DNA of 64,000 nucleotides. It comes from a virus. Every line of letters starts with the position of its first letter. Position 1 is the first letter of the stretch. The stretch lies in IMG/VR virus record IMGVR_UViG_3300033143_004594, positions 1 through 64,000 of that record; one strand, written 5' to 3'. The notes beneath the pieces are model-generated. The model worked only from the letters and a program-made list of their open reading frames with translations. It was not told the DNA's origin and ran no database searches. This document shows positions 1-20,001 of this stretch, one piece after another. The position numbers and the translations under genes were made by a program.

Positions 1-417
1 GGGGGGGCTTGGGATCTCGTCACCCATTTTAGGCTATCGAATCCGGCCGTTGAATCCTACCATGATCGATTATGATAACCTAGATTGTAATAATCGATCA
101 GGCGGTCCGCCTGATGACAGGCAGAAGCAGCGGAGATCGAGCGGTCCGCCTGTCTCCCTGATGACACAGAAGCAGAAGCGGAGATCGCCTGAGCGGACCG
201 CGGTTTTTTTCTGTTTGTTTTTTTCTGTCTGCTTAGATAATGTTTTTCTGTGTCTGTGTCGCTGTCTCCCTGTCTGCCTGATGAGACACAGAAGCGGACC
301 GCCTGATCGGTCTGTGTGTGTGTTTGATGAGACAGAAGCGGACCGCCTGATCGGTCTGTGTGTCTCCCTGTGTGGCGATCTCTGTGTGTGTCTGCTTCTG
401 TGTCCGCTTCTGTGTCT

Positions 418-441
418 CCGCCTAATACAGGCGGGTTTTTT
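418..441 (+). terminator. Intrinsic-terminator-like hairpin
   Basis: CCGCCT-aatac-AGGCGG followed by GTTTTTT. Confidence 0.5.
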
Positions 442-557
442 CTGTCTGTGTGTCGAGATCAGGCGGAGATCGGACCGCTCAGGCGATCTCTGCTTCTGTG
501 TCGCATTCTAAGCGGAGACAGGCGGAGATCAGGCGGTCCGCTTTCTATATAGTACAG

Positions 558-582
558 ACCGCCTATTTTTGTGGCGGTTTTT
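558..582 (+). terminator. Intrinsic-terminator-like hairpin just upstream of the promoter at 597
   Basis: ACCGCC-tatttttgt-GGCGGT followed by TTTT. Confidence 0.5.
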
Positions 583-596
583 CCCTGTGATCTCAC

Positions 597-626
597 TTGA
601 CAATAATTGACATTATAGGTTATGAT
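597..626 (+). promoter_or_regulatory. Sigma70-like promoter candidate
   Basis: TTGACA (597-602), 18-nt spacer, TATGAT (621-626). It lies ~70 nt upstream of the ATG at 693. Confidence 0.5.
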
Positions 627-640
627 TTATGTCCGCGGAA

Positions 641-695
641 AAACCGCGGACCGCTCAGGCAGACACAAGAACACACAAGGAGTAAAGCGATAATG
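641..695 (+). repeat. Partial or degenerate copy of the hairpin+RBS cassette upstream of the first small gene
   Basis: ccgcggaaaaaccgcggaccgctcaggc...caaggagtaaagcgataATG. It shares the GGACCGCTCAGGC word and the RBS block with the 58-bp cassettes. Confidence 0.6.
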
Positions 696-1166
696 ACAGG
701 CATTACAGAGAATACAGGAAAAACCGATCTAATTATTAGAGATCACAGACTCACAGAAGCGGACCGCCTGTATAAAAAATCATTCGATCTACACTTGAAA
801 GCGGAGACACAACTCGCACTATCTGAGATCATACGAGATCAGGCGGTCCGCTTAAAACTACAGGCGGAGAAAGCAGAAGCAGAAGCGGAGACAGGCGATC
901 ATTATATGGTTTTTCATTTTACTTGTGATCTAGTCATAGGGCACAATTTTACAGGGAGTGAAGTTATATTTTCCGCTATAGATGAGATCGAGATCATAAG
1001 ACACACAGAAGCGGACCGCAAAAAATACGATCAATTAATTGTCCGCTTCTGCTTAGAAAAAAATCCGCTATTCCATATTGATACATTGTATTTTACTCTG
1101 AGCGATATATCACATATTGACGATCACACAGGCGGACAATATAAACTCACAGAGATCACAATATAA
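693..1166 (+). CDS. Hypothetical small protein, EADRL-word family
   Basis: The ATG at 693 is preceded by caAGGAGtaaagcgata. The track ORF 597..1166 starts on a TTG inside the -35 box, so the internal start is preferred. Contains TEADRL, QAVRL and TEADRK words. Confidence 0.6.
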   Translation: MTGITENTGKTDLIIRDHRLTEADRLYKKSFDLHLKAETQLALSEIIRDQAVRLKLQAEKAEAEAETGDHYMVFHFTCDLVIGHNFTGSEVIFSAIDEIEIIRHTEADRKKYDQLIVRFCLEKNPLFHIDTLYFTLSDISHIDDHTGGQYKLTEITI

Positions 1167-1224
1167 CGGACCGCGGACCGCTCAGGCGGTCCGCCTGTAC
1201 TTTACAAGGAGTAAAGCGATTATG
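1167..1224 (+). repeat. 58-bp intergenic cassette copy 1: hairpin GCGGACCGC-TCAG-GCGGTCCGC followed by CTGTACTTTACAAGGAGTAAAGCGATTATG
   Basis: Near-identical to the copies at 1351, 2232 and 3272. Ends on the ATG of the downstream ORF. Confidence 0.9.
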
Positions 1225-1347
1225 ATCAAAGTATGGTTTTTTTGTGTTCTTGTTAGCATTCTGCTTTTGTACTACACAGAAGCGATCACAGCGGTTTTTT
1301 TTCTGATCGCTGTGGTTTTATATGAAACATGGAAGACGATCAATTAA
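1222..1347 (+). CDS. 41-aa hydrophobic (membrane) peptide
   Basis: ATG directly follows cassette copy 1. Sequence is MIKVWFFCVLVSILLLYY...AVFFLIAVVLYETW. Confidence 0.5.
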   Translation: MIKVWFFCVLVSILLLYYTEAITAVFFLIAVVLYETWKTIN

Positions 1348-1350
1348 TAT

Positions 1351-1408
1351 CAGACCGCGGACCGCTCAGGCGGTCCGCCTGTACTTTACAAGGAGTAAAG
1401 CGATAATG
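1351..1408 (+). repeat. 58-bp intergenic cassette copy 2
   Basis: cagaccgcggaccgctcaggcggtccgcctgtactttacaaggagtaaagcgataATG. Confidence 0.9.
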
Positions 1409-1723
1409 AACGATCACATATTGACAGAAGCAGCGGAGACAGAAGCGGACCGCCTAAGCATAGAAGCGGAGATCAAGCGATCTCACACTCGACACAGAGA
1501 GACTCACCACAGCGATCATTTTATGGTTTTTTCTGTCTGTGGTGATTTTACCCATTATGATCACCTGATCGCTTCTGTCTCCCTGATGGCAGACACAGAG
1601 ATCGAGATCGATTATATTGGCGAGCACACTATGATCGGTCTGATTATTTTGCCAAATGCTACAGAAGCGGAGATCACAGAAGCGGACCGCCTGTATAGTG
1701 AATTACAAGGAGTAAAGCGATAA
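1406..1723 (+). CDS. Hypothetical protein, MND-x4-EA/EADRL paralog family
   Basis: ATG follows cassette copy 2. N-terminus is MNDHILTEAAETEADRL. Confidence 0.65.
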   Translation: MNDHILTEAAETEADRLSIEAEIKRSHTRHRETHHSDHFMVFSVCGDFTHYDHLIASVSLMADTEIEIDYIGEHTMIGLIILPNATEAEITEADRLYSELQGVKR

Positions 1724-2220
1724 TGACACACAACAATTGTGGTTTTAACAGACCACAGAGATCGAGCGGTCCGCGGTCCGCTTCTGTACTTTCTCCGCCT
1801 GAGTGTGAGAACACATGGCGATCAGAGATAAAAAACCGCCACACATGCAAAGTAAAAAATACACAGGGAGACTCCGATCTCACTCTGATCTCTGACACAC
1901 AGGAGATCGATCACATTGGCGATTATTTAGGCATTAATCGCCTGAGTGAGGATTATGGTTGTCTGTTTGTCGAGATCGCTGATGGCGATTATGGTCATAT
2001 ATTGGGCTGTGAGTCTAATATTCCATACTTAGAAAAAATATTATATGACATAGATTATTATGAGGAAACATGGCGGTTTTTTCAGGAGATCGCAGAAAAA
2101 CACAGCGAGATCTATTGTCCTATGTGTGGCGGAGACTCCGCTCACTTGGGCACACTTGGCACACTTGATCATTATCGCTGTGTAATGTGTCATATGGAAT
2201 TCTCACGATCTCAGGAGTAA
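1723..2220 (+). CDS. Hypothetical protein with C-terminal zinc ribbon (CPMCGG...CVMCH)
   Basis: TAATG overlap with the upstream gene. An AAGGAGTAAAGCGATA RBS is embedded in the upstream gene's 3' end. Has a CxxC...CxxC motif. Confidence 0.7.
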   Translation: MTHNNCGFNRPQRSSGPRSASVLSPPECENTWRSEIKNRHTCKVKNTQGDSDLTLISDTQEIDHIGDYLGINRLSEDYGCLFVEIADGDYGHILGCESNIPYLEKILYDIDYYEETWRFFQEIAEKHSEIYCPMCGGDSAHLGTLGTLDHYRCVMCHMEFSRSQE

Positions 2221-2231
2221 AGCGATAATAA

Positions 2232-2289
2232 CAGACCGCGGACCGCTCAGGCGGTCCGCCTACACTTTACAAGGAGTAAAGCGATAATG
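2232..2289 (+). repeat. 58-bp intergenic cassette copy 3
   Basis: Same sequence apart from gcctaCActttac in place of gcctgTActttac. Confidence 0.9.
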
Positions 2290-2601
2290 AACGATCAAAC
2301 AATAGCAGAGATGGCATATACAGAAGCGGACCGCCTGAACACAGAAGCGGACCGCCTACAGGCAGAAGCGATCAAAATACAGGCAGAAGCGGACCGCCTG
2401 ATCGAAAAAATCACGAGCGGACCGCCTGATCTTGTGTATTACCAATACACAGGGAGATCGGATTTTTTCAATTATGAGAATTCGGGTGATCTCTGTTTTC
2501 ACACTCCGCCACAAGCGGAGAAAGCAGCGATCAATAATGGATTAATTACATGGCGAGTGATCATGGTCTGTGAGTATGTTGTCAAGACAGGGAAAGTATA
2601 A
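2287..2601 (+). CDS. Hypothetical protein, MND/EADRL paralog family
   Basis: ATG follows cassette copy 3. Sequence is MNDQTIAEMAYTEADRLNTEADRLQAE...EADRLIEK. Confidence 0.65.
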   Translation: MNDQTIAEMAYTEADRLNTEADRLQAEAIKIQAEADRLIEKITSGPPDLVYYQYTGRSDFFNYENSGDLCFHTPPQAEKAAINNGLITWRVIMVCEYVVKTGKV

Positions 2602-2602
2602 A

Positions 2603-3268
2603 ATGAACGATCTAATACTGGCAGAAGCGGAAAAAAAGAAAGCAGAAGCGGACCGCCACAGAAAAACCGCGGACCGCCTGATCGCAGAAGCGGACCGCCT
2701 GTCAAACGTATTTTATCTTAGAGATGAGATCGCAGAGAAAGCGGACCGCCTACAGGCAGAAGCGGACCGCCTGATCGCTTTCGCTGATCGCCTGATGGCA
2801 GAAGCGGAGAAAGCAGAAGCGGACCGCCTGATCGATAAAATCAGAAGCGGAGAAAAAATCAGAACATGGAAACATAAAACCGGCCTGTTTTTTATCGATC
2901 AGGAGATCACAGAGATCGAGATCGAATTATGGCAGACAGGCAGAAGCAGAAGCGGAGACAGAGATCGCCTGTCTTATGTTTTAAGTGAGAATAGTGTGCC
3001 TGTATTTTATGGTTTATCTGATCTAGGAATTCCGCCACACATGGCAATAGATAGCGATCTCTCTGTGTGTGCCTGTCTGTTTTTTCTCGCACTCAGGCAG
3101 GGAGACACAGACAGTGATTATTTTGAAAACTACACAGACACACAATTACAATGGATACACTCACAGACCGCCACAGAGATCAGGGAGATCGTGAGCATAT
3201 GTGAGGAAAATGATCTCACACTCGATCAGGCGATCTCTGTTATGTTAGCATGGGAAACAGAAAAATAA
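2603..3268 (+). CDS. Hypothetical protein, MND/EADRL paralog with an (A)EADRLI-repeat coiled-coil-like N-terminus
   Basis: The ATG at 2603 sits 1 nt after the upstream stop. Sequence is MNDLILAEAEKKKAEADRH..ADRLIAEADRL..., with at least 6 ADRL words. Confidence 0.6.
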   Translation: MNDLILAEAEKKKAEADRHRKTADRLIAEADRLSNVFYLRDEIAEKADRLQAEADRLIAFADRLMAEAEKAEADRLIDKIRSGEKIRTWKHKTGLFFIDQEITEIEIELWQTGRSRSGDRDRLSYVLSENSVPVFYGLSDLGIPPHMAIDSDLSVCACLFFLALRQGDTDSDYFENYTDTQLQWIHSQTATEIREIVSICEENDLTLDQAISVMLAWETEK

Positions 3269-3271
3269 TAT

Positions 3272-3329
3272 CAGACCGCGGACCGCTCAGGCGGTCCGCC
3301 TGTACTTTACAAGGAGTAAAGCGATTATG
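3272..3329 (+). repeat. 58-bp intergenic cassette copy 4
   Basis: Same sequence, ending in gcgattATG as copy 1 does. Confidence 0.9.
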
Positions 3330-3779
3330 ATCAGTTTAGAAGCAGCAAAAAATCTCACACATGGCGAGATCATTTATCACATAAGTCATAGGAATGCCGA
3401 TCAGACTCCGCAGAGATGGCGCATTAATGGCAAAGTGAAAACATGGAGAACCAGACCACAGGAGATCAGTATACCTATAAAACACGGTTTATATGATTAT
3501 GGTTATTTAACACACAATGATCTTGATCTTGTGTGTCTGTCAGAAGCAGAAGCGGAGATCGTGACGAACTCAGGCACAGAGATCGGACATTATGATTATT
3601 TATATCGAAACATAAAACACAGAGATTATATTTATGGCTGTGTGTTACCACAGGCGGACCGCCTACAGAGATCGATCATTGTAGGCGGAGATCGGACAAT
3701 TGATGATCAGGGAGTGACAACAATTACAGGCGGAATCACCTATTATTTTCCTATAGGTGAGGAATCCGGCCTAAATTGA
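3327..3779 (+). CDS. Hypothetical protein
   Basis: ATG follows cassette copy 4. 150 aa of ordinary composition. Confidence 0.75.
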   Translation: MISLEAAKNLTHGEIIYHISHRNADQTPQRWRINGKVKTWRTRPQEISIPIKHGLYDYGYLTHNDLDLVCLSEAEAEIVTNSGTEIGHYDYLYRNIKHRDYIYGCVLPQADRLQRSIIVGGDRTIDDQGVTTITGGITYYFPIGEESGLN

Positions 3780-3808
3780 CAGAAAAACCACAAACAGACC
3801 ACAAACAG

Positions 3809-3845
3809 ACCACAGAGATCGATCAGGTGATCTCTGTGGTTTTTT
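3809..3845 (+). terminator. Intrinsic terminator after the small-gene cluster
   Basis: 12-bp stem ACCACAGAGATC/GATCTCTGTGGT, 8-nt loop, then TTTTT. It lies 30 nt after the stop at 3779. Confidence 0.8.
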
Positions 3846-3911
3846 CTGTGTGTAGACCACAGAAGCAGCGGAGATCGGACCGCCTGAGCGGTCCGCCTGT
3901 CTGCCTGTCTG

Positions 3912-3972
3912 CTTCTGCGGTCTGTGTGCCTGTCTCCCTGTCACTTTGATCGAGATCGGACCGCTCAGGCGG
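3912..3972 (+). repeat. 61-bp direct repeat, copy a
   Basis: cttctgcggtctgtgtgCctgtctccctgtcactttgatcgagatcggaccgctcaggcgg. One mismatch to 4135-4195. Confidence 0.85.
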
Positions 3973-4008
3973 TTTTTTTCCGATCAGGCGGTCCGCCTGT
4001 CTGCCTGT

Positions 4009-4055
4009 CTGCTTCTGCTTCTGTGGTCTGTGTCATCAGGCAGAAGCAGAAGCAG
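4009..4055. repeat. Perfect 15-bp inverted repeat (CTGCTTCTGCTTCTG / CAGAAGCAGAAGCAG) with a 17-nt spacer
   Basis: Read directly. Arms are at 4009-4023 and 4041-4055. Confidence 0.85.
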
Positions 4056-4134
4056 AGATCGCCTGAGCGGACAATACAGGCGATCTCTGTGTCTGCCTGT
4101 CTGCTTCTGCCTGTCTCCGCTGCTTCTGCTTCTG

Positions 4135-4195
4135 CTTCTGCGGTCTGTGTGTCTGTCTCCCTGTCACTTTGATCGAGATCGGACCGCTCAGGCGG
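4135..4195 (+). repeat. 61-bp direct repeat, copy b
   Basis: Matches 3912-3972 with one mismatch. Confidence 0.85.
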
Positions 4196-4221
4196 AGATC
4201 GATCAGGCGGTCCGCCTGTCT
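4181..4221 (+). repeat. 41-bp direct repeat, copy a
   Basis: ggaccgctcaggcggagatcgatcaggcggtccgcctgtct. Identical to 4271-4311. Confidence 0.85.
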
Positions 4222-4270
4222 GCTTCTGTTATCCCAGGACACAGACCGCCACAGAGATCAGGCGGACCGC

Positions 4271-4311
4271 GGACCGCTCAGGCGGAGATCGATCAGGCGG
4301 TCCGCCTGTCT
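4271..4311 (+). repeat. 41-bp direct repeat, copy b
   Basis: Identical to 4181-4221. Confidence 0.85.
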
Positions 4312-4501
4312 TCCCAGCTGGGATCGGCCGACTGGCAGAAGCAGCGGAGATCAGGCGATCATGGTTCATTCACACGCGCAAAAATGATCGGTGAGCAGAA
4401 TTTTATAATGTTTTCGGCCGGGTCTTTTTGGTTTTTCTGGTTTTTTTTATTGGTTTACGGCCGGGTTTTTCCGGCGCGATTACACACAAGGAGTAAAGTA
4501 T

Positions 4502-4873
4502 ATGATCACAGCTATAGTTATGGGCGCATATGGTAAAAAAGATGAGTACAGAGTGGATCGACTTGCTAACCGTGGCGAGTGGTTCGGTAAAACTTGGTTC
4601 GTTGGGATCGGTTGCGGGTTCGATATACACCGCGTAGTAGTAGAAGCGGACAATGAGTCAGAGGTGATCGACGCCTTGACGGATTCGGCCGCTGGTCACT
4701 TGATAAAAGTTGATGAGGAATGCCCCCATCAAGATCCTGATCAATGGGATCAATGTAATTGCACATTTGCCGGTAATTTTTCTGATCGCGTCGATCTGGA
4801 TGACATTCGAATTCTGAAGCGTTGCAAAGTAAAATATTTTGAACCGGCCGATCGTTGGTTGGATATTAGCTAA
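4502..4873 (+). CDS. Hypothetical protein (123 aa) isolated between two non-coding repeat blocks
   Basis: ATG preceded by caAGGAGtaaagtat. Normal amino-acid composition. Confidence 0.75.
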   Translation: MITAIVMGAYGKKDEYRVDRLANRGEWFGKTWFVGIGCGFDIHRVVVEADNESEVIDALTDSAAGHLIKVDEECPHQDPDQWDQCNCTFAGNFSDRVDLDDIRILKRCKVKYFEPADRWLDIS

Positions 4874-4902
4874 ACAGACAGACACAGACCACAGGATCAG
4901 AC

Positions 4903-4927
4903 AGGATCGGCCGGTTTTCGGCCGGTC
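4903..4927 (+). other. 10-bp-stem hairpin downstream of the 4502..4873 gene
   Basis: GGATCGGCCG-gtttt-CGGCCGGTCC with one G-T wobble. No T-run follows, so it is not a canonical terminator. Confidence 0.45.
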
Positions 4928-5040
4928 CTGAGTGTGATCGCGTCTCTGTATGGTTTTACCTGTCTGCCTGTCTGCCTGTCTGCCTGAGCGGAGATCGGAC
5001 CGCTTGATCGGTCTGCTTCTGCTTCTGTGTCTCCGCTTGT

Positions 5041-5210
5041 GCCTGTCTGCCTGTGTTCTCATTGGGCGGACCGCTCAGGCGATCTCTGTGTGTGTGTCCG
5101 CCTGTCTGCCTGTGTCCTCATCAGGCGGACCGCTCAGGCGATCTCTGTGTCTCCCTGTCTGCCTGTCTGCTTCTGTGTGTCTGCCTGTGTCCTCATCAGG
5201 CGGAGATCGG
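5041..5210 (+). repeat. About 2.8 tandem copies of a ~60-bp unit
   Basis: Unit is gcctgtctgcctgtgtYctcatYRggcggaccgctcaggcgatctctgtgt. Unit starts are at 5041, 5100 and 5161 (the last is partial). Confidence 0.8.
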
Positions 5211-5344
5211 CCGGTTCTACCACAGGTAAAACGCGCCGGCGCGGAAAGTCTGAACGGCCGTTCGATCCTTGCCGGCCAACGGTCCGCGGCGAGTGTGGTC
5301 GAGCGGGCAGCGGGCGGACCGTGGGCGGGGGCGCTTCTACTATA

Positions 5345-5449
5345 TACACGCGGGATCGACATAGGCGAGCAGAATTTACACGCGCTAAGGGGTTCGGCCG
5401 CCTTAAAAAATACACGCGGCCGGGGAGGTGCGAGCAGAATTTACACGCG
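5345..5449 (+). repeat. Four TACACGCG iterons at 31-34 bp spacing; two are part of a 20-bp repeat GCGAGCAGAATTTACACGCG
   Basis: TACACGCG at 5345, 5377, 5411 and 5442. The 20-mers are at 5365-5384 and 5430-5449. A related GTGAGCAGAATTTTATAATG is at ~4391. Confidence 0.75.
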
Positions 5450-5507
5450 GATCGAAGGGGGGCGGGCTGGAGTTGGCAGCAAATCGGGCGGATCGGTTCT
5501 CATTTAC

Positions 5508-5535
5508 TTGACAAGCAATTATAAGGTGTTATTAT
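5508..5535 (+). promoter_or_regulatory. Sigma70-like promoter candidate for the 5592 operon
   Basis: TTGACA (5508-5513), 16-nt spacer, TATTAT (5530-5535). Confidence 0.5.
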
Positions 5536-5591
5536 CTATCTATCCGACGCGGGCCGCGGGCGGTCCGCCTTAGTAATAAGGAGCAAGCGAA

Positions 5592-11653: not shown

Positions 11654-11673
11654 GGCCGGGAAGGAAAAGCGAA

Positions 11674-13781: not shown

Positions 13782-13797
13782 TAAGGAGTAAAGCGAA

Positions 13798-14127: not shown

Positions 14128-14144
14128 CGCAAAGGAGATCAATT

Positions 14145-15023
14145 ATGTCACATATGGAAGCACAAGCAGACCTCGGAAATTGGATCGAGTTTGAAGATCC
14201 CTTAGAAGGGCGGCGGGTTGTTGAAGCTGAGTGGGAAGACGATCAGGACATAGTAACCGGGCCGGTAACTGATAAATGGGTCAATGTTTGGTTTTCCCGG
14301 CTTAGTGCTCCAGGTTATTTGGACTGTACTGCTTGGGAAGGGCCATATCACACTGAGGAAGGGGCGCTCTATGGCCTGTATGAAAGTCTCGGAAGCGATG
14401 ATAGTGAGACTTACTTCTCATTCATCGGGGATGATAAGTGGATTATCCAGGGTTCGCTAAGGGTCACAGGCCGGGAAAACCACTTATACGGCCGTCCCCT
14501 TGGCGAAAAACCCCCGGTTGAAATTTGGTTAGCACAACTCGGAGATATTGACCTGGATGAGGAAACGGGCGAAACATTCCCCTATGATCCTAATGAGGAC
14601 CATGATCTCCCCGAAGCGTATGAGTTCAGGCTGATCGATCCAAAGTCCAAGCGGGACATAAGGACCAAACGTTGGGGCTATCTGTCAGAAGCAGCGGCCG
14701 AACTCCTGGATCGGCTGGAGTGCGCCAAGCGGGACTCAGAATGGTTCGTGAGTGTTGAGGTGTTCATCGGCTGGACCGATTATACCTGGACCACGCGCTA
14801 CTCCGAGCAACCGGCCGAAATCTCAGATAATGAGCGAACGGATCGGGCCATAGCCGAGATTTTACACGCGCTAGAACCCGATCCCAACGCGCCAACGCTT
14901 CCTATGGACTTACCCACCGTGGCGTTTACTGGCATCTATCATATGGGTATTGAAGAATTCGAGTGGTCTGAAATTGACACTCCTGGATATTATTCACGAC
15001 AAGGAGATCAGAATGAAAAATGA
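14145..15023 (+). CDS. Hypothetical, strongly acidic protein
   Basis: SD is aAAGGAGatcaatt. 292 aa, rich in D/E and aromatic residues. Confidence 0.8.
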   Translation: MSHMEAQADLGNWIEFEDPLEGRRVVEAEWEDDQDIVTGPVTDKWVNVWFSRLSAPGYLDCTAWEGPYHTEEGALYGLYESLGSDDSETYFSFIGDDKWIIQGSLRVTGRENHLYGRPLGEKPPVEIWLAQLGDIDLDEETGETFPYDPNEDHDLPEAYEFRLIDPKSKRDIRTKRWGYLSEAAAELLDRLECAKRDSEWFVSVEVFIGWTDYTWTTRYSEQPAEISDNERTDRAIAEILHALEPDPNAPTLPMDLPTVAFTGIYHMGIEEFEWSEIDTPGYYSRQGDQNEK

Positions 15024-15618
15024 AAATGAGATGACAGAGGGCGGACTTTTAACCAAGGGCCAAGCCCGAGACCTTGCGGACCATTTCGGATGTAAACAGG
15101 CCAACATTTACAAGACGGGCATCATTATCGCCGTCAATGAAACTGAGGACCGTTTTGTACCTCATCCTCTTTGGCCTGATTTTATTCGCAGCCTGAAAGC
15201 GATCCGGTTCATGGTTAAGGAGCGTTATGAGTGCCGGGTAATTGGCGCTCAGGATGATGGTCAACACGGCTGGCTTATAACCACCGTTACGGACCGGGAC
15301 GGGCCGCCTATGACACAAGAAAAGGCGCTACGGGCCGCGATCTACGCCGTTTGGCTTCAATATTCGGGTGACAATCCCCCGCTCCCTGTGGATGAAAAGA
15401 TCACCACGGTCCGATCCACAGAGGGCCATGTTATGACCGTCAAAACCAACAAGTACGGGGTTGCAATTGGGGTCGAAGGATATGATCATTTCGTCAATGG
15501 GGAGATCGCCTACCTGGAGAATACAGACGGTGAATTAATCCTGTATGTTTGGGCGGACCATGACAACCAAGATCCTACCCATCGGATCGAGTTTTCCCCC
15601 ACTCCAGAGGATGAATAA
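15013..15618 (+). CDS. Hypothetical protein
   Basis: The internal ATG at 15013 is preceded by cAAGGAGatcaga, with an 11-nt overlap onto the upstream gene. Confidence 0.7.
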   Translation: MKNENEMTEGGLLTKGQARDLADHFGCKQANIYKTGIIIAVNETEDRFVPHPLWPDFIRSLKAIRFMVKERYECRVIGAQDDGQHGWLITTVTDRDGPPMTQEKALRAAIYAVWLQYSGDNPPLPVDEKITTVRSTEGHVMTVKTNKYGVAIGVEGYDHFVNGEIAYLENTDGELILYVWADHDNQDPTHRIEFSPTPEDE

Positions 15619-15624
15619 AAAGAT

Positions 15625-15651
15625 AAGCCCCGGCTGATAAGACCGGGGCTT
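15625..15651 (+). terminator. Hairpin after the 15013..15618 gene (terminator-like, no clear T-run)
   Basis: AAGCCCCGG-ctgataaga-CCGGGGCTT. Confidence 0.4.
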
Positions 15652-15678
15652 GGCATACCCCTTGCGGAGTAAAGCGAA

Positions 15679-15714
15679 ATGTATACACATTCTAACACAA
15701 GGAGATCGAAATGA
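15679..15714 (+). CDS. 11-codon upstream ORF (MYTHSNTRRSK) carrying the conserved initiation cassette
   Basis: GGAGTAAAGCGAAATG at 15666-15681. Its stop TGA overlaps the ATG of the next gene (ATGA at 15711-15714). Confidence 0.3.
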   Translation: MYTHSNTRRSK

Positions 15715-15965
15715 GCAAGAATCAATCGGTTACGAGTAAGGCGGAGCAGAAGCGCCTAGAAGCCCGCCAACGCGCTCGGGCCTGTGCTGATGACTTTATC
15801 AGGACCGGCCGTGTCTGTTTTGGGTGCGCCTATTACGCGCTATGCGGGATTGGGGATAGGGACGCGGCTAACCTGAGCAGCTTCTTACGGGCCGTCGATC
15901 CTGATGGGAAAAACATTACTGTTATCGGACTCGGGCCACTAGCCCCTAGTAAGGAGTCACGATGA
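15711..15965 (+). CDS. Hypothetical protein
   Basis: AAGGAG at 15699-15704. 84 aa. Confidence 0.7.
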   Translation: MSKNQSVTSKAEQKRLEARQRARACADDFIRTGRVCFGCAYYALCGIGDRDAANLSSFLRAVDPDGKNITVIGLGPLAPSKESR

Positions 15966-16234
15966 AAAAAATACGGCTAGAACCCAAGATCAAGAAGGAT
16001 AAGCCCTGGACGGCCGTCGCCACCAAGGGAACATTCACCCATAAGGGCGCAAAGTACGCGCTCCAGGGCTTCAATAGCAACGATGAGCGGGTGATCGACA
16101 CCAAGATCCAGGGGCAACTTACAATGCTTCCCTATGGGTCAAAGAGTATCGCGGTCGGTGGCTGTGTCCAGGTTCTTAACGGCTCAGGCCGGAATAACTT
16201 CCGCACCCTCATCCTAGCCCCCAGCTCGAATTAA
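15962..16234 (+). CDS. Hypothetical protein
   Basis: ATGA overlap and AAGGAG SD. 90 aa. Confidence 0.7.
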   Translation: MKKIRLEPKIKKDKPWTAVATKGTFTHKGAKYALQGFNSNDERVIDTKIQGQLTMLPYGSKSIAVGGCVQVLNGSGRNNFRTLILAPSSN

Positions 16235-16245
16235 AGGAGTTTGCC

Positions 16246-16452
16246 ATGGATCCACTTAAAGATAAACGTTTTTTGAAGTACCTCATCATGTTCGGAGTCT
16301 TGGTCATGTCCTGTTGGATCGTTTTCAGCGGTTGGATACTGCCAATGCTCCCTAACACGCCCTTAAAGGGCGGGCTGGCAACGCTCGGGGGCGGGGTCAT
16401 CCTGGTTGTGTGTGCTCTGCTAGTAATACGCGCCTACGAAGCCGGGGAGTAG
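16246..16452 (+). CDS. Small membrane protein (2 predicted TM helices)
   Basis: SD is aAAGGAGtttgcc. Has hydrophobic stretches. Confidence 0.65.
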   Translation: MDPLKDKRFLKYLIMFGVLVMSCWIVFSGWILPMLPNTPLKGGLATLGGGVILVVCALLVIRAYEAGE

Positions 16453-16460
16453 AACCCGTG

Positions 16461-16488
16461 TTGTAAAAGGTATGGGTTATGATATACT
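16461..16488 (+). promoter_or_regulatory. Sigma70-like promoter candidate
   Basis: TTGTAA (16461-16466), 16-nt spacer, TATACT (16483-16488). Confidence 0.4.
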
Positions 16489-16531
16489 ATTTTTCACCGG
16501 CTGAGATACGGTCGGTAAAGGAGTAAACGAA

Positions 16532-17536
16532 ATGGATAGAATAAAAGCTACACTTAATTTATCTTTTGATTTTCCGGCCGATTGGGGAGATGATCAGATT
16601 ATAGACCATATAAAGGATGAGGTATTGGGGTTCGGCCGCCGTCATGAACTGGAGCAATACATCGAGATCCTTAACCCGAAAATAAACCCGGCCGACTTCC
16701 TGTATGCGGTTCGACATGAGTCCGCTTTTGGACCTGTCCCCGGCGCGTATATGGGTAAGTTTCACAAGCAGGGAGCGTATGATGGGGTAGATATACTCTG
16801 CTCCTGTAAAGATTGCCGAGCAGCACACGCCTTGGCGAACCTCACGCCTGATAGCCCTCTGAACCAAGCCGACATTGTTGAGACTCCAGACGGGGAGATC
16901 GGCAACGTTTATCAGACCAACCCGGAAGACACGCGGGTTCAGGTTATTCGGCCGTTGCAGACGCTCGTACTAAAATACCCGACCTCAAAAATATTTTTGA
17001 TGGGGATCGATCCTAATATGGCTTGCCCTAATTGTAAACAGGAGCATCAGGCTTGCCCTTGTGGAAACCCGACCTATTGCCCGCCTGATGAACCGGGCGA
17101 ACCCTTCACACGCTGTAATGAGTGCGACGAAGCCATAAAAGCGGCCGAAGTGTTGGGGATTGCTCGGCCGGAGTTGATCATTTTAACCAAAGACGTGACC
17201 CATGTCGGGCGGGACGCCTCTTTGATCGACGTGCCAAGCGGAACTCGGTGCGCTGTAAGAACGCATCTCACTAATGGTCCGGCCGTCTCTCCCCTGAATG
17301 TCCCGGTCCAGGTTCGACAGCTTGTCAAGGGTGAAAGCTACAGAACCAAGGGCGACCACGGGGAAGTCTACATCTACCAGGGGTTCAACATCAAAACCAA
17401 CCGCCATGAATTTATGCCAGAAAAACCAAGCCGTTTTGACGGGGGTGTGGGGGTTCACGAGACCAAGATCCCGACCACGCTCCAGCATCATTTCAAAATA
17501 CAACTTGACCATAGTCAATACAGACCTGCAATTTAA
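16532..17536 (+). CDS. Hypothetical Cys-rich protein
   Basis: ATG preceded by aAAGGAGTAAACGAA. 334 aa. Has a CPNC..C.C...C....C.EC cluster. Confidence 0.8.
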   Translation: MDRIKATLNLSFDFPADWGDDQIIDHIKDEVLGFGRRHELEQYIEILNPKINPADFLYAVRHESAFGPVPGAYMGKFHKQGAYDGVDILCSCKDCRAAHALANLTPDSPLNQADIVETPDGEIGNVYQTNPEDTRVQVIRPLQTLVLKYPTSKIFLMGIDPNMACPNCKQEHQACPCGNPTYCPPDEPGEPFTRCNECDEAIKAAEVLGIARPELIILTKDVTHVGRDASLIDVPSGTRCAVRTHLTNGPAVSPLNVPVQVRQLVKGESYRTKGDHGEVYIYQGFNIKTNRHEFMPEKPSRFDGGVGVHETKIPTTLQHHFKIQLDHSQYRPAI

Positions 17537-17551
17537 TAAGGAGTAAAGCAA

Positions 17552-18499
17552 ATGAATGAATTAATACAGGTAAACGGCGGGCTACAAGTCCTGGTCGATC
17601 TCGTTACCAATGGGAAATCGACCAACACAAAACGGGCCTATGGACGGGCCATCAATGATTATGCTGAGTTTGTCCAAGCTGCCAGCTTCAACGCAAAAAT
17701 GAGCATGGGCGGTTTCACACGGTCAATGGTCATGTTCTATGTCAACCACTTACAAAATGAGGGGTATTCTCCGGCCTCAATTAACCAGCGATTGGCCGCG
17801 CTCCGCTCCTTAGCCAGGGAATTAAGGTACACAGGCGCTCTAAAGGACGATATAGCCAGGGGGATCGGGGAAATTGAGAACGTCCCGGACCGGGGTTCGC
17901 ATGTCGGCCACTGGCTCACCCAGGACGAAGCCAGAGACCTATTAGACGCGCCGGAGCGTGATACGCTCCAGGGGCGACAGGAGCGGCTATTACTGGCTCT
18001 CTTGCTTGGGGTTGGTCTCAGGCGGAGTGAGGCCGCGGATCTCGATTGGGCTCACATTAAGGAGCACGGCGGTAACTTTTTCGTTACCAACATCGTAGGC
18101 AAGCACAACCGGAAGCGGACAATCCCGATCCCCCCGTGGGTTGTGAAGATCCTACTCGACTGGAAGGACGAAACGGCCGCGGCCGGCCTCATTTTGCGGG
18201 CTGTAAGCAAAAGTGACAAACTCGCCGGTCATGTCCGTACCAAAGGTGGGGGAATGACTAACGGCGGGCTATCGGCTCAGGCCGTCTATAAAAAGGTGAA
18301 GCTGCTGGCCGCAAGAGCGCATATCACCGACCTCGGGCCGCATAGCCTACGCCGTACCTACGCCCAACGCCTTTACAAGCAGGGGTGTCCGCTCGATCAG
18401 ATCAGCCTATTCCTTGGTCACAAGAACCTAGAGACCACGGAACTCTATCTCGGGCTGAAAAATGTGGACCTGGAAGATCCCTTTTTCGTGGAATACTAG
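17552..18499 (+). CDS. int: Tyrosine recombinase / phage integrase family
   Basis: ATG preceded by tAAGGAGTAAAGCAA. Has an N-terminal SAM-like core-binding region. Catalytic signature is GLRRSE, HSLRRTYA and LGHKNLETTELY. Confidence 0.9.
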   Translation: MNELIQVNGGLQVLVDLVTNGKSTNTKRAYGRAINDYAEFVQAASFNAKMSMGGFTRSMVMFYVNHLQNEGYSPASINQRLAALRSLARELRYTGALKDDIARGIGEIENVPDRGSHVGHWLTQDEARDLLDAPERDTLQGRQERLLLALLLGVGLRRSEAADLDWAHIKEHGGNFFVTNIVGKHNRKRTIPIPPWVVKILLDWKDETAAAGLILRAVSKSDKLAGHVRTKGGGMTNGGLSAQAVYKKVKLLAARAHITDLGPHSLRRTYAQRLYKQGCPLDQISLFLGHKNLETTELYLGLKNVDLEDPFFVEY

Positions 18500-18511
18500 A
18501 AGGAGCATATC

Positions 18512-19078
18512 ATGAATGAATCAGTAATTATGGACCATTGGCTCAAAACTATCCTGGAGTTCTCACAACTCACGCTTGATCACCGCTTCAAAAAGTGGGC
18601 CAAGTACATCACGGATTGTGACATGGACCGGGATGATGGGTATATGTTTGAAGGGGAATGGATTGGGCCGGGAACAGTCCAAGTACCTACCGGACATCAC
18701 CGTATTATTTTAACCTGTGCGATCTCCGGCTCGAATAAGTACCATTATCGACACTTCCGGGTATTGATCATGAAACCTGATACAACCCTGGAGTTTACAG
18801 ACATATTCACCGATGATCATGACAAGGGTTGGGCGCTCCGCCTGAAACCTGTGATTTGCACCCTTCTGGAAACCCTGGAGCAACGCGATCAAGGCATCCT
18901 CACGCCGCGGGACAGGGTTCATTTGGCCGCTGAAAGTTTTTCTTCCGTTGTGAGCCAGCTACCAGAGGATGAACAAATCAAATGGTTTTCGTGGCTTCTC
19001 CAGGGCAAAGACGATCAATTCCTGCCAAAGGTCGGGGAGATGCTGGTGAAACTCAACAGAGAGGTTAATAATGTTTAG
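18512..19078 (+). CDS. Hypothetical protein
   Basis: SD is gAAGGAGcatatc. 188 aa. Confidence 0.75.
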   Translation: MNESVIMDHWLKTILEFSQLTLDHRFKKWAKYITDCDMDRDDGYMFEGEWIGPGTVQVPTGHHRIILTCAISGSNKYHYRHFRVLIMKPDTTLEFTDIFTDDHDKGWALRLKPVICTLLETLEQRDQGILTPRDRVHLAAESFSSVVSQLPEDEQIKWFSWLLQGKDDQFLPKVGEMLVKLNREVNNV

Positions 19079-19328
19079 AATAATGAGCAAGGGAAGACAG
19101 TCCGGCCAATTAGCATCGTTGGCAACGCTGATCAAAGACGAGTCCGATGTCCAGATACTTGTTGATGAGTTCAATACCAAGCATGGATCTTGGCTGGAGT
19201 TCTCATATCAGGACGCGGCCGATCCTGTCCCCGATGGGGTCATGGAAATTGGCACTGAATTCGCCGTTGAAAAAACCGCCTTGGAAACGGTTTATATAGA
19301 TCCGGTTTACTCGGATGAGGAAGAATAA
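19071..19328 (+). CDS. Hypothetical acidic protein
   Basis: Overlaps the upstream stop. 85 aa. Confidence 0.55.
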   Translation: MFRIMSKGRQSGQLASLATLIKDESDVQILVDEFNTKHGSWLEFSYQDAADPVPDGVMEIGTEFAVEKTALETVYIDPVYSDEEE

Positions 19329-19329
19329 C

Positions 19330-19992
19330 ATGGTTAAAATGGATGTTTATAACACTCGATTGGAAGTAGCGGCCGCAAGAAAGAATATGTGGTTGCACCT
19401 GCTACTTTTTGTGACCGTCCTGTTTGCCTTCTTTGTGGTAGCAAAGCCCTTTGCCAACACGGGGTCACGCTTAGAGACCTTTTACCAGAGTCCCTACTTC
19501 ATGTCAGTGACGGCCGACGGCGGGGTGGAAGTCACCTTACCAACTGACCTGGGTATGCCCAATATTCCCAGCTGCAAAGACCTTGACCCTGAGCTATGTT
19601 CTTGGGACTCCAGGATGAGATCCACCTATGCGGACGGCGAAGAAACCATAGTAATAGAGACTAGCCTAGAAGTGGACGGGGAAGTAATTGGTCAGGGCAT
19701 GTTGATGAGGGTTAGAACAACCACCTTCGAGCAGCTTCTACCGCTGGCTGAGAAGGGCATAGAGTACGGTTGGGTCTCTCATATCATGGTTGATAAGGGG
19801 ATGAGAGGTCAGGGACTCGGCCGACTTCTATGGCAAGCATCAGATGTGATGCTCAAATCTGTTGTTGGCAGCGGCCGGGGTATTCATGTATTTGTTGATC
19901 AGGCAGGTTGGGGACAGGCCATCATGGGGCGGGTCCCGGTTAATGATGTCATCTTCCACCTGAATGACCTTTGGGCTTACATAGTAAGATAA
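19330..19992 (+). CDS. Protein with an N-terminal TM helix and a C-terminal GNAT N-acetyltransferase-like domain
   Basis: The ATG at 19330 is preferred because it follows the upstream stop at 19328. The GNAT motif-A-like sequence is VDKGMRGQGLGRLLW. Confidence 0.6.
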   Translation: MVKMDVYNTRLEVAAARKNMWLHLLLFVTVLFAFFVVAKPFANTGSRLETFYQSPYFMSVTADGGVEVTLPTDLGMPNIPSCKDLDPELCSWDSRMRSTYADGEETIVIETSLEVDGEVIGQGMLMRVRTTTFEQLLPLAEKGIEYGWVSHIMVDKGMRGQGLGRLLWQASDVMLKSVVGSGRGIHVFVDQAGWGQAIMGRVPVNDVIFHLNDLWAYIVR

Positions 19993-20001
19993 GGAGCGAT
20001 T

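What the first reader, a model, noticed from the sequence alone, without database searches (positions are those of the whole stretch)
1..20000. Steep GATC density gradient from the left end, in a phage that encodes three DNA methyltransferases
These are hand counts of GATC, against an expectation of ~2.3 per 600 bp. I counted 13 in 1-600, 12 in 601-1200, 22 in 5581-6360 and 14 in 9001-9600. Further right I counted 9 in 14041-14640, 4-5 in 19021-19620, 4 in 35041-35640 and 2 in 45001-45780. The early arm is therefore about 5-7x enriched and the late arm is near background. Codons are visibly bent to carry the site (GAG-ATC gives E-I runs such as EIEI; GAT-CGN is common). GATC is the Dam/MboI/DpnI/SeqA/MutH site, and phages usually avoid it or are neutral to it. 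A module-specific surplus of this size suggests function. Options include methylation-dependent timing of early transcription, SeqA- or MutH-type sequestration, or dependence on self-methylation by the phage enzymes at 6772-9777, 25612-27321 or 27515-29002.
Basis: seen in the sequence. Interest (0 to 1): 0.75.

Follow-up and report, generated by a model that had tools for sequence, protein, structure and literature searches.

The report
GATC-saturated early arm of a phage
The first ~16 kb of this uncultured tailed phage carries the methylation motif GATC at about 65% of the places its proteins allow (75-79% in the densest genes). The rest of the genome is ordinary for GATC and has purged most other palindromes, which points to an undescribed DNA-level function for this motif in the early-gene arm.

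Summary

**Density profile.** GATC runs at 22-27 per kb over 1-9 kb and ramps down to 12 per kb by 16 kb. A shoulder of 7-11 per kb lasts to 20 kb, then the density is ~4 per kb, which is expectation. This is a plateau plus a ramp, not a steep gradient.

**Controls.** The surplus survives di- and trinucleotide models (z = 20 and 10), synonymous shuffles and codon-order shuffles. It is also present in non-coding DNA. Codon pairs are context-dependent (Asp GAT 82% before C; Ile ATC 88% after G). Sites sit in almost all-different contexts and are more evenly spaced than random.

**Second phage.** The only phage sharing the early LPD29+methyltransferase polyvalent gene (49% identity, nothing else shared) shows the same local GATC saturation, although synonymous sites are otherwise randomised.

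**Wider pattern.** The arm has reduced k-mer complexity and intensified avoidance of restriction-type words. About half of all 6-bp palindromes are absent genome-wide, including CGATCG, AGATCT and GGATCC.

**Host.** Probably Chloroflexota (Anaerolineae), so the SeqA/MutH ideas are unlikely.

**Best reading (about 0.35).** A positively selected array of adenine-methylation sites that protects or marks the early-gene arm, inferred to enter the cell first.

**Not established.** Which enzyme, if any, modifies GATC, and what the array does.

The parts
1..9000 (.). GATC plateau: 218 sites, 22-27 per kb, about 6x expectation
   Evidence: Sites lie in coding and non-coding DNA. 128 of 144 and 189 of 190 sites have distinct 12-mer contexts, so this is not repeat amplification.
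9001..16000 (.). GATC ramp: 19, 22, 19, 17, 14, 13, 12 per kb. Change point to background called at 15,750.
   Evidence: Saturation of GATC-capable dipeptides falls from 0.64-0.73 to 0.25-0.45 across these genes.
16001..20500 (.). Shoulder: 7-11 GATC per kb, dipeptide saturation about 0.33. Includes a tyrosine recombinase gene at 17552-18499.
20501..64000 (.). Replication and structural genes with GATC at expectation. Counted over 20001-64000: 181 sites, 4.1 per kb, O/E 1.06. Other 4-bp palindromes are depleted here (ACGT 0.40, CTAG 0.40, GTAC 0.49).
   Evidence: A further 6.6 kb to the right (L059) is also at background.
6772..9777 (+). Early polyvalent protein (1001 aa): LPD29 domain plus C-terminal HsdM-like N6-adenine methyltransferase module (motif I LEPSAGSG, motif IV NPPF). 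71 GATC; 75% of capable dipeptides are used.
   Evidence: Pfam; alignment; AlphaFold model with pLDDT 91 whose best full-length matches are 2okc (HsdM), 3s1s and 7eew
25612..27321 (+). Putative beta-class amino-methyltransferase (DPPY at residue 33). Family support is weak.
   Evidence: PHROG 67, E = 3.7e-6; NCBIfam weak; no PDB sequence match; motif
27488..29002 (+). Beta-class N6/N4 DNA methyltransferase (PF01555; SPPY at 34, FVGSG at 435)
597..626 (+). Strong sigma-70-type promoter (TTGACA-18-TATGAT, 11 of 12) reading into the early genes
5508..5535 (+). Second strong sigma-70-type promoter (TTGACA-16-TATTAT with TG, 11 of 12)
1..596 (.). Non-coding block built from shuffled short words (CTGTCTGC, CAGAAGC, GCGGACCGC, GAGATCG), GATC-dense, lying upstream of the first promoter
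3780..4480 (.). Second non-coding word block
4875..5507 (.). Third non-coding word block, ending at the second strong promoter
1161..1228 (+). Repeated intergenic cassette: hairpin GCGGACCGC-TCAG-GCGGTCCGC, then AAGGAG Shine-Dalgarno and ATG. Further copies lie at about 1345-1410, 2226-2290 and 3266-3330.
   Evidence: family D2

Best explanation
The early arm (1 to about 16-20 kb) is transcribed rightward from host-type promoters. By analogy with lambda and T7 it is inferred to be the last DNA packaged and the first to enter the cell. It carries a positively selected, evenly spread array of about 330 GATC sites. I take these to be adenine-methylation sites written on progeny DNA by a phage-encoded methyltransferase. 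The prime suspects are the early LPD29/HsdM-like polyvalent enzyme, whose own gene lies within the density plateau, and the DPPY enzyme at 25612-27321. A host enzyme could also contribute.

Under this reading the density of marks, or of the enzyme bound to them, protects or identifies the stretch of DNA that is exposed longest before other counter-defences are made. The fall-off of GATC with distance would mirror the fall-off of that exposure.

Shown: the surplus, its selection at codon-pair level, its even spacing, its independence from repeats, its recurrence in a second phage, and its coincidence with intensified avoidance of restriction-type words.

Inferred: that GATC is methylated, which enzyme does it, entry polarity, and the protective effect.
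For: 1. Selection on the word itself. There are 71 sites against 38±3.5 after synonymous shuffling. 65% of capable dipeptides are used, against 19% in late genes, and intergenic density is 18-19 per kb against 3.9. Asp is GAT 82% of the time before C but 32% before G; Ile is ATC 88% after G but 17% otherwise; Glu is GAG in 29 of 29 cases before Ile.
2. Coverage rather than clustering. Spacing CV is 0.71, the largest gap in 1-10 kb is 168 bp, and there is no helical period.
3. GATC behaves as a safe word in a genome under extreme restriction pressure. Between 34 and 36 of 64 six-bp palindromes are absent from each 15.5-kb late segment. ACGT, CTAG, GTAC and TGCA are depleted, yet late-region GATC has O/E 1.06.
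4. The supersets CGATCG, AGATCT and GGATCC are nearly absent (2, 1 and 0 observed against 37, 15 and 9 expected) while TGATCA is not (22 against 25). In laboratory enzymology Dam methylation blocks BclI (TGATCA) but not PvuI, BglII or BamHI (established knowledge).
5. The same arm shows graded loss of k-mer complexity and extra depletion, on both strands, of restriction-type words (GATGC, GAAGA, CTGCA, CCTGC, TGCA, ACGT). The same selective regime therefore appears to act on both features.
6. L056, the only phage with an orthologous polyvalent gene (49% identity; no other shared gene), has 9-22 GATC per kb over its first 6 kb and 5-9 per kb after. In the orthologue there are 56 sites against 32.5±3.4. 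25 of 43 jointly capable aligned dipeptides carry GATC in both phages, although other synonymous codons match only 32% of the time. L056 also has stronger palindrome depletion in its GATC-rich part.
7. The early arm shares the genome-wide and host-like CGGCCG surplus (37 against 4.5 expected), so it is not recent foreign DNA.
8. Polyvalent proteins with N6A methylase modules are proposed to act during and just after invasion (PMC5512222).
Against: - No methyltransferase here could be assigned GATC specificity, and none is of the Dam family.
- The HsdM-like module has no recognisable target-recognition domain. The LPD29/middle region has no structural match.
- More distant homologues of the methyltransferase module (35-45% identity) sit in elements with no GATC surplus (L061, L062, L054, L068). 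One of those elements carries a separate PF05869 Dam.
- A phage with a stand-alone LPD29 protein is GATC-depleted (0.35x).
- m6A at GATC protects only overlapping sites against classical type II enzymes, so how density would protect the intervening DNA is unexplained.
- In L056 GGATCC is enriched (20 against 4), so the 'only Dam-blocked supersets are tolerated' pattern is not general.
- The ATCGAT-overlap test is consistent with the idea but not significant.
- Entry polarity and the true genome end are not established. The window simply starts at a contig end with a poly-G run.
Confidence: 0.35

Rival explanations
1. Epigenetic timer. Virion DNA is fully methylated at GATC and replicated DNA is transiently hemi- or unmethylated. 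A reader protein (phage ORFan or host) binds one of these states cooperatively along the dense array and shuts off, or licenses, the early genes after replication starts.
For: The array is dense and evenly spaced, as a cooperative reader would need. It covers exactly the early and delayed-early transcription units and fades toward the replication genes. It recurs in L056. Precedent from established knowledge: SeqA at oriC and lambda pR, P1 pac, and IS10.
Against: The two strong early promoters contain no GATC. No reader domain was found among the early ORFs, which are all ORFans. The probable host phylum has no known SeqA. This reading does not explain the co-graded restriction-word avoidance.
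Confidence: 0.15
2. Landing pad. The array is a set of binding sites, independent of methylation chemistry, that tethers a GATC-recognising protein in cis to the entering or early DNA. The polyvalent protein itself is the obvious candidate. Tethering would keep its effector domains on its own genome, or would ratchet or coat the DNA.
For: Codon-level saturation is highest in and around the polyvalent gene in both phages: 0.69-0.79 at 4.5-11 kb here, and 0.58 in the L056 orthologue against 0.40-0.46 in the flanks and 0.2-0.3 beyond. Spacing is even. Polyvalent proteins are thought to be delivered with the DNA or to act at once.
Against: No DNA-binding or target-recognition fold was detectable in the protein. 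The family of the methyltransferase module shows no general link to GATC. The density plateau extends to the extreme left end, 6.7 kb upstream of the gene.
Confidence: 0.15
3. By-product of a methyltransferase-linked biased repair or gene-conversion process, like the model proposed for cyanobacterial highly iterated palindromes. The surplus would have no function of its own.
For: Palindromes co-vary with cognate methyltransferases in cyanobacteria, and Elhai's model makes over-representation an epiphenomenon (PMC4390886). This phage and its probable host lineage also over-use CGGCCG 6-8x. Near-cognates NATC/GATN are depleted.
Against: A repair bias should act genome-wide, yet late genes are at expectation. 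The neighbour most depleted is the transversion neighbour GATG/CATC, which is itself a restriction-type core. The transition neighbours expected from deamination repair are not the most depleted. Local maintenance in two phages over saturated synonymous divergence needs a local cause.
Confidence: 0.1
4. RNA-level signal. GAUC in early transcripts is the target of an endoribonuclease, in the manner of T4 RegB at GGAG, or pairs with the 16S rRNA 3' tail (GAUCACCUCC).
For: The surplus coincides with one co-oriented early transcription unit.
Against: The word is a palindrome and is the commonest DNA methylation motif. Flanks are strand-symmetric (Y at -1, R at +1). C after GATC, which would extend rRNA pairing, is the least frequent base (0.12), and T before it is not preferred. 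Density is equally high in the 1-596 block upstream of the first strong promoter. Avoidance of the palindromic supersets is a DNA-level signature.
Confidence: 0.05
5. Compositional mosaic. The arm, or the polyvalent-gene cassette, was acquired from a GATC-rich donor and is slowly ameliorating.
For: The polyvalent gene is the only gene shared with L056. Genome-wide GATC-rich phages exist: L005 and L049 with HIP1, L150 and L174 at high GC, and mycobacteriophage subcluster B3 (PMC4841201).
Against: The arm shares the resident CGGCCG surplus and the same purged palindromes. CGATCG is avoided rather than enriched as in HIP1 donors. The two orthologues keep GATC although synonymous sites are randomised, so the signal is maintained and not inherited. 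The decline is smooth across many unrelated ORFan genes.
Confidence: 0.05

Closest known systems
Highly iterated palindromes (HIP1 GCGATCGC and alternates such as GGCGCC, rCCGGy, TGATCA) of cyanobacteria (Elhai 2015, PMC4390886)
   Same: A short palindrome that is a methyltransferase target is over-represented many-fold, in coding and non-coding DNA. It co-occurs with methyltransferases. The function is unresolved (selection or biased repair).
   Different: HIPs are genome-wide at about 0.5-2.5 per kb. Here a 4-mer reaches 23 per kb, is confined to one arm with a graded edge, and its HIP1 core CGATCG is avoided. The setting is a phage, and the probable host is Chloroflexota rather than a cyanobacterium.
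Genome-wide GATC/GGATCC over-representation in subcluster B3 mycobacteriophages (PMC4841201)
   Same: GATC about 4x over-represented in a phage, contrary to the usual palindrome avoidance, and unexplained.
   Different: In B3 the surplus is uniform along the genome and GGATCC is co-enriched. Here it is arm-restricted and GGATCC is absent from the arm. In relative L056, however, GGATCC is enriched.
Dam/SeqA/MutH GATC clusters (oriC, P1 pac, lambda pR)
   Same: Dense GATC read through its methylation state to time or license a DNA transaction.
   Different: Those clusters span 150-250 bp and sit at specific control sites in Dam+ gammaproteobacteria. This array spans 16 kb, runs through coding sequence, shows no phasing, and belongs to a phage whose host is probably Chloroflexota. 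No Dam-family enzyme, SeqA or MutH was found.
Restriction-site avoidance combined with polar, early-gene-first entry (T7 Ocr logic) - established knowledge
   Same: The first-entering arm bears the brunt of restriction. The arm here shows the strongest depletion of restriction-type words.
   Different: Known cases remove sites or encode protein inhibitors. Positive saturation with one site is not part of the described repertoire.
Polyvalent proteins with N6A methylase modules, such as P1 DarB (Iyer et al. 2017, PMC5512222)
   Same: A large multidomain early or co-delivered phage protein containing an LPD domain and an adenine methyltransferase module, proposed to act in cis during invasion.
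   Different: DarB is an LPD36-MTase-helicase. This protein is LPD29 plus an HsdM-like module without a helicase. No sequence array has been linked to such proteins before.

Membership tests
Dam/SeqA/MutH GATC system | Dam-family (PF02086 or PF05869) GATC methyltransferase present | tested here: not met
   The three methyltransferase candidates hit MTS/LPD29, PF01555, or nothing in Pfam. NCBIfam and PDB give only CcrM/MboIIA-type or HsdM-type similarity.
Dam/SeqA/MutH GATC system | SeqA or MutH reader in phage or host | tested here: not met
   No such Pfam domain in the 20 window ORFs scanned against Pfam; those early ORFs and a further 16 window ORFs also gave no such annotation in PHROGs or NCBIfam. 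The probable host lineage is Chloroflexota/Anaerolineae. Host genomes themselves were not searched.
Dam/SeqA/MutH GATC system | Short cluster of helically phased GATC at a control site | tested here: not met
   The array spans 16 kb. No 10-11 bp periodicity appears in pair distances. The strong promoters lack GATC.
Highly iterated palindromes (HIP) | Palindromic oligomer with O/E far above 1 in coding and non-coding DNA | tested here: met
   O/E is 5.4 over 1-16 kb. Intergenic density is 18-19 per kb.
Highly iterated palindromes (HIP) | Genome-wide distribution | tested here: not met
   Late 44 kb has O/E 1.06. Change point at 15.75 kb.
Highly iterated palindromes (HIP) | Cognate methyltransferase encoded in the same genome | tested here: inconclusive
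   Three amino-methyltransferase candidates are present but no specificity is assignable.
GATC-rich phages (mycobacteriophage B3 type) | GATC and GGATCC both about 4x over-represented along the whole genome | tested here: not met
   The surplus is arm-restricted. GGATCC is 0 in the arm and 5 (expected 12.5) in the late region.
Restriction-site avoidance | Short palindromes depleted relative to composition | tested here: met
   True for most palindromes: 34-36 of 64 hexamers absent per 15.5 kb, and ACGT, CTAG, GTAC and TGCA at 0.2-0.6. GATC is the opposite.
Polyvalent proteins (Iyer et al. 2017) | LPD domain fused to an enzymatic conflict domain in one large phage or conjugative-element polypeptide | tested here: met
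   PF18847 LPD29 (E = 8e-13) plus an HsdM-like methyltransferase module in a 1001-aa early phage protein.
Polyvalent proteins (Iyer et al. 2017) | Delivered with the DNA or acting immediately on entry | not testable with these tools
   Needs virion proteomics or infection time courses.
Chi-like protective motifs | Orientation-dependent 5-8-mer over-represented toward a DNA end | tested here: not met
   GATC is a palindrome. The strand-biased words GCGG, AGCGG and GCGGA are enriched on the sense strand, but they follow codon usage (Ala GCG 52%) and were not pursued as Chi.

The most novel reading that the evidence does not exclude
Phages of this uncultured, probably Chloroflexota-infecting group may use a DNA-encoded, position-graded array as a counter-defence device. 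The early-gene arm, inferred to enter first, would be saturated with GATC so that a co-delivered or first-made polyvalent methyltransferase is captured in cis. That enzyme would then paint or coat the stretch of DNA that must survive until other defences are up. Site enrichment would then stand alongside site avoidance, DNA mimics and hypermodification as an anti-restriction principle.
Probability: 0.2. Interest if true: 0.85.

Novelty: new variant of a known kind. Interest (0 to 1): 0.68.

Why it matters
Phage genomes are expected to lose restriction-type palindromes. This one has lost about half of all hexamer palindromes, yet it uses about 65% of the available positions for one tetramer palindrome (75-79% in the densest genes), and only in its early arm. 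A second, otherwise unrelated phage does the same around the same gene.

If the array works through methylation or protein capture, it would be a sequence-level defence or regulatory strategy that gene-centred annotation cannot see. It would also give a handle on two things that have no experimental foothold: the function of polyvalent methyltransferase proteins, and phage-host conflict in Chloroflexota. Even if it is a by-product, a position-graded mutational or repair bias in a phage would be new.

The result also suggests a cheap screen that could be run on all phage genomes: sliding-window palindrome O/E together with k-mer entropy.

Tried and rejected
**Searches for relatives or known elements**
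- Megablast of 1-12 kb and 20-45 kb, and tblastn of one structural protein, against 50,697 phage records: no match.
- IMG/VR scans with a hairpin pattern, a structural protein and the PF01555 methyltransferase: nothing.
- The word GCGGACCGCCTGATCG gave only single chance hits.
- A genome-collection scan with the polyvalent alignment found nothing.
- Rfam and tRNA scans found nothing, so the CTGATGA...GAA strings are not hammerheads by Rfam.

**Explanations tested on the sequence**
- Repeat amplification as the source of GATC: rejected. Contexts are nearly all distinct.
- Helical phasing: none.
- Vsr-type neighbour depletion: the transition neighbours are not the most depleted.
- Anti-Shine-Dalgarno pairing: the flanks argue against it.
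- 'ATCGAT survives only where it overlaps GATC': 19 of 20 sites overlap, but this is what the local GATC frequency predicts, so it is not significant.

**Links to protein families**
- A general link between the methyltransferase-module family and GATC richness: not found in L054, L061, L062 or L068. L064 and L066 are only 2.2x, and uniformly so at 64% GC.
- A link between LPD29 alone and GATC: rejected. L203 is GATC-depleted.
- Fold search of the LPD29/middle region: no significant match. The best E-value is 0.38, and a faint T4 MotA-like hit has E of about 0.7.
- PHROG, Pfam and NCBIfam searches of about 30 early ORFs: all ORFans.

**Look-ups that failed**
- DNA for the closest stand-alone methyltransferase homologue (P0003, 56% identity) was not retrievable.
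- Exact-protein look-ups of DnaB and the fibre gene failed.

Full report
**1.

The window has 547 GATC against 250 expected from base composition.

Per-kb counts fall into four zones:

| Zone | GATC per kb |
|---|---|
| 0-9 kb | 22-27 |
| 9-16 kb | 19 falling to 12 |
| 16-20 kb | 7-11 |
| beyond 20 kb | about 4 |

A penalised segmentation puts one change point at 15,750. A further 6.6 kb recovered to the right of the window (L059) is also at background.

Under sequence models trained on the region itself, 1-10 kb has 237 sites. The dinucleotide model expects 68±8 (z = 20) and the trinucleotide model expects 125±11 (z = 9.9). The late 44 kb has 181 against 180±14.

The maximum is 42, in a HIP1-rich cyanophage-like contig.

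**2. The surplus is selected at the level of the DNA word**

- In early genes GATC exceeds synonymous-codon shuffles. The 1001-aa gene has 71 sites against 38±3.5.
- Those shuffles in turn exceed codon-order shuffles (25±4), and these exceed the late-gene density. Codon choice, residue adjacency and residue composition are all bent.
- Of all dipeptides that could encode a GATC synonymously, 65% do so in 1-10 kb (up to 75-79% in single genes). The figure is 54% in 10-16 kb, 33% in 16-20.5 kb and 19% in late genes. The number of capable dipeptides per 100 residues is also raised (11.1 against 6.6).
- Codon use is context-dependent:
  - Asp is GAT in 82% of cases before C but 32% before G.
  - Ile is ATC in 88% of cases after G but 17% otherwise.
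  - Glu before Ile is GAG in 29 of 29 cases.
- Intergenic DNA of the arm has 18-19 GATC per kb against 3.9 elsewhere.
- The sites are not copies of a repeat. 128 of 144 sites (1-6 kb) and 189 of 190 sites (6-16 kb) have distinct 12-mer contexts.
- Spacing is more even than random (CV 0.71, largest gap 168 bp in 1-10 kb, Kolmogorov-Smirnov P = 1e-4) and shows no helical periodicity.

**3. GATC is one part of an arm-wide change of vocabulary**

*Palindromes genome-wide.* This phage has lost most hexamer palindromes. Between 34 and 36 of 64 are absent from each 15.5-kb late segment, where 3-5 copies of each are expected. The tetramers ACGT, CTAG, GTAC and TGCA are depleted. CGGCCG is 8-fold enriched.

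*Features specific to the early arm.*
- The tetramer depletion is stronger (ACGT 0.20, TGCA 0.18).
- Many restriction-type words are nearly absent on both strands: GATGC, GAAGA, CTGCA, CCTGC, CCTCG and ACGAC.
- 6-mer entropy rises smoothly from the left end to a plateau at 16-20 kb.
- Sense-strand GCGG is 4-fold enriched with a similar profile. It goes with a shifted codon usage (Ala GCG 52% against 20%).

*Supersets of GATC.* Within NGATCN, CGATCG (2 observed, 37 expected), AGATCT (1, 15.4) and GGATCC (0, 9.0) are almost excluded, while TGATCA (22, 25.4) is not. The same holds more weakly in late DNA.

*The first 5.6 kb.* This stretch also contains three non-coding blocks made of shuffled 6-9-nt words: 1-596, about 3780-4480 and about 4875-5507. 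Two of them end at near-consensus sigma-70 promoters (597-626 and 5508-5535). There is also a repeated hairpin plus Shine-Dalgarno cassette between small ORFan genes.

**4. What the element is and who it infects**

The window is from a tailed phage. Evidence is a tape-measure-like 1971-aa protein, an M23 peptidase tail or lysis protein, a collagen/CBM fibre, and a head-protein-like ORF just outside the window. Replication genes present are DnaB, a Sak4-like protein and an HTH initiator. It has no relatives in the phage collection or IMG/VR. Identical sequence occurs in JGI samples 3300033155 and 3300033149.

The host is probably Chloroflexota, on two indirect clues:
- The best genomic matches of the phage DnaB form a separate tier at 44-47% identity. 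All of them are Chloroflexota/Anaerolineae (Ardenticatenaceae, Promineifilaceae, Ca. Leptofilum). The next tier is at 37%.
- Those host-lineage loci share the phage's unusual CGGCCG surplus (323 against 50 expected). Their GATC is only 1.2x overall, ranging from 0.55x to 2.4x per genome.

Both clues are indirect.

**5. A second phage shows the same thing**

The early 1001-aa gene (6772-9777) encodes an LPD29 domain and a C-terminal methyltransferase module. Its only full-length homologue (49% identity) lies on a marine-sediment contig, L055/L056, which shares no other gene with the window.

- L056 has 9-22 GATC per kb over its first 6 kb, ending with that gene, and 5-9 per kb afterwards.
- The orthologue has 56 GATC against 32.5±3.4 after synonymous shuffling.
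- At 43 aligned dipeptides that could carry GATC in both, 25 do so in both. Other synonymous codons agree only 32% of the time, which is near random. The sites are therefore maintained independently and not inherited.
- L056 also has stronger palindrome depletion in its GATC-rich part, and the CGGCCG and GCCGGC surplus.
- In both phages codon-level saturation is highest in and around the polyvalent gene.

**6. What could not be tied down**

- The methyltransferase module belongs to a large family of about 330-aa proteins (1663 hits), some fused to ArdC-N.
- Its model (pLDDT 91) matches HsdM, BpuSI and a Vibrio type I methylase over its whole length. It is an N-terminal helical domain plus a gamma-class N6A catalytic domain without a target-recognition domain.
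- Elements carrying homologues at 35-45% identity show no local GATC surplus. One of them carries a separate Dam gene.
- A phage with a stand-alone LPD29 protein is GATC-depleted.
- The LPD29/middle region folds confidently but matches nothing in the PDB.
- The two downstream enzymes are beta-class amino-methyltransferases (DPPY and SPPY near the N-terminus) of unknown specificity.
- I therefore cannot say which enzyme, if any, modifies GATC.

**7. Interpretation**

The facts that need explaining are:
- positive selection for the bare tetramer;
- even coverage;
- a plateau and ramp that follow the early transcription unit;
- co-graded intensification of restriction-word avoidance;
- neutrality of GATC elsewhere in a genome that purges other palindromes;
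- exclusion of three of the four hexamer supersets;
- independent maintenance in a second phage around the same early methyltransferase gene.

The most economical reading is that GATC is a modified, and therefore safe, site in these phages, and that the density of marks or of the bound enzyme is itself useful on the early arm. I infer that this arm is the DNA exposed first and longest. The late operon, with head genes, starts at the far right and reads leftward. The early arm starts at the far left behind host-type promoters that read inward. By analogy with lambda and T7 the left end would then be packaged last and ejected first. I give this reading about 0.35, because the protective mechanism of spaced m6A is not obvious and no enzyme could be assigned.

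Rivals:

| Reading | Weight | Main point |
|---|---|---|
| Replication-coupled epigenetic timer | 0.15 | Needs a reader protein; promoters lack GATC |
| Methylation-independent landing pad, for example for the polyvalent protein acting in cis | 0.15 | Saturation peaks around that gene; no DNA-binding fold found |
| HIP-like by-product of biased repair | 0.10 | Disfavoured by arm restriction and by the neighbour spectrum |
| GAUC signal in early RNA | 0.05 | Disfavoured by symmetric flanks and by C being the rarest base after the site |
| Compositional mosaic | 0.05 | Disfavoured by the shared CGGCCG signature and by maintenance across saturated synonymous divergence |

**8. Relation to what is known**

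- Over-represented palindromes linked to methyltransferases are known from cyanobacteria. HIP1 and its alternates occur at 0.5-2.5 per kb genome-wide, and selection versus repair bias is unresolved there (PMC4390886).
- A uniform 4-fold GATC/GGATCC surplus is known, and unexplained, in subcluster B3 mycobacteriophages (PMC4841201).
- T5-like phages do the opposite and avoid Dam methylation (PMC10644984).
- Five literature searches found no description of an arm-restricted, graded, near-saturating surplus of a methylation motif coupled to heightened restriction avoidance.

I therefore class it as a new variant of a known kind (methyltransferase-linked palindrome over-representation), with an open possibility that it is a new anti-restriction principle.

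Noticed in passing
window 20001-64000 (and the whole window); L056: Extreme purge of 6-bp palindromes. Between 34 and 36 of 64 are absent from each 15.5-kb segment (about 31 have zero copies in the late 44 kb, where about 10 each are expected). CGGCCG (77 against 9.9), ACCGGT (29), GCCGGC (22) and TTGCAA (24) are enriched. L056 shows a similar pattern (24 absent; CGGCCG, GCCGGC, TGGCCA and GGATCC each 5-6x).
   Followed up: partly
L069-L085, L102, L104, L105 (Chloroflexota/Anaerolineae genome loci): These host-lineage loci over-use CGGCCG 6.5-fold (323 against 50). The pattern resembles a highly iterated palindrome outside cyanobacteria, and the phage mirrors it. It also supports the host assignment made from DnaB (44-47% identity tier).
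   Followed up: partly
window 1-596, 3780-4480, 4875-5507: Three non-coding blocks are assembled from a handful of shuffled words (CCTGTCTG at 8-nt period, CAGAAGC, GCGGACCGC/GCGGTCCGC, GAGATCG), in both orientations. Two of the blocks end at near-consensus sigma-70 promoters. Their function is unknown (regulatory array, origin or decoy).
   Followed up: partly
window 1161-1228, 1345-1410, 2226-2290, 3266-3330: A repeated hairpin (GCGGACCGC-TCAG-GCGGTCCGC) plus AAGGAG plus ATG cassette separates small early ORFan genes. It is reminiscent of the promoter-early stem-loop cassettes that mediate gene shuffling in T4-type phages (recalled from memory, not tested).
   Followed up: no
window 597-3268: Small early ORFs carry in-frame copies of the same DNA words, giving repeated peptide strings such as TEADRL, AEADRL and EIEI. 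CGGWCCG occurs about 50 times in 1-6 kb and about 5 times in the 44 kb beyond 20 kb.
   Followed up: partly
window 1-12000, + strand: Sense-strand GCGG (21 per kb, 4x) and GCGGA, AGCGG and GGCGG are enriched with a gradient like that of GATC. This goes with a codon-usage shift between early and late genes (Ala GCG 52% against 20%, Thr ACA 46% against 26%, His CAC 70% against 42%). AGCGG and GAAGCGG are Chi sequences in some Firmicutes (recalled from memory). Not pursued.
   Followed up: partly
window 1-7: The window starts with GGGGGGG. This could be a sequencing or assembly artefact at a contig end, so position 1 is not established as the physical genome end.
   Followed up: no
window 57331-61827 (- strand): A 1498-aa fibre-like protein with long collagen triple-helix repeats and a CBM5/12 domain. 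The repeats generate many long spurious ORFs on both strands and a local drop in k-mer entropy.
   Followed up: no
L005, L049 (IMG/VR contigs with the nearest viral DnaB, 32-35% identity): Both carry HIP1 (GCGATCGC, 11 and 21 copies) and 12-15 GATC per kb along their whole fetched length. They are probably cyanophages that mirror the host HIP1.
   Followed up: partly
L062, L064, L066, L067: Stand-alone homologues of the HsdM-like methyltransferase module repeatedly sit next to a DNA polymerase III beta (sliding clamp) gene in phage or integrative-element early regions. Some family members are fused to an ArdC N-terminal domain.
   Followed up: no
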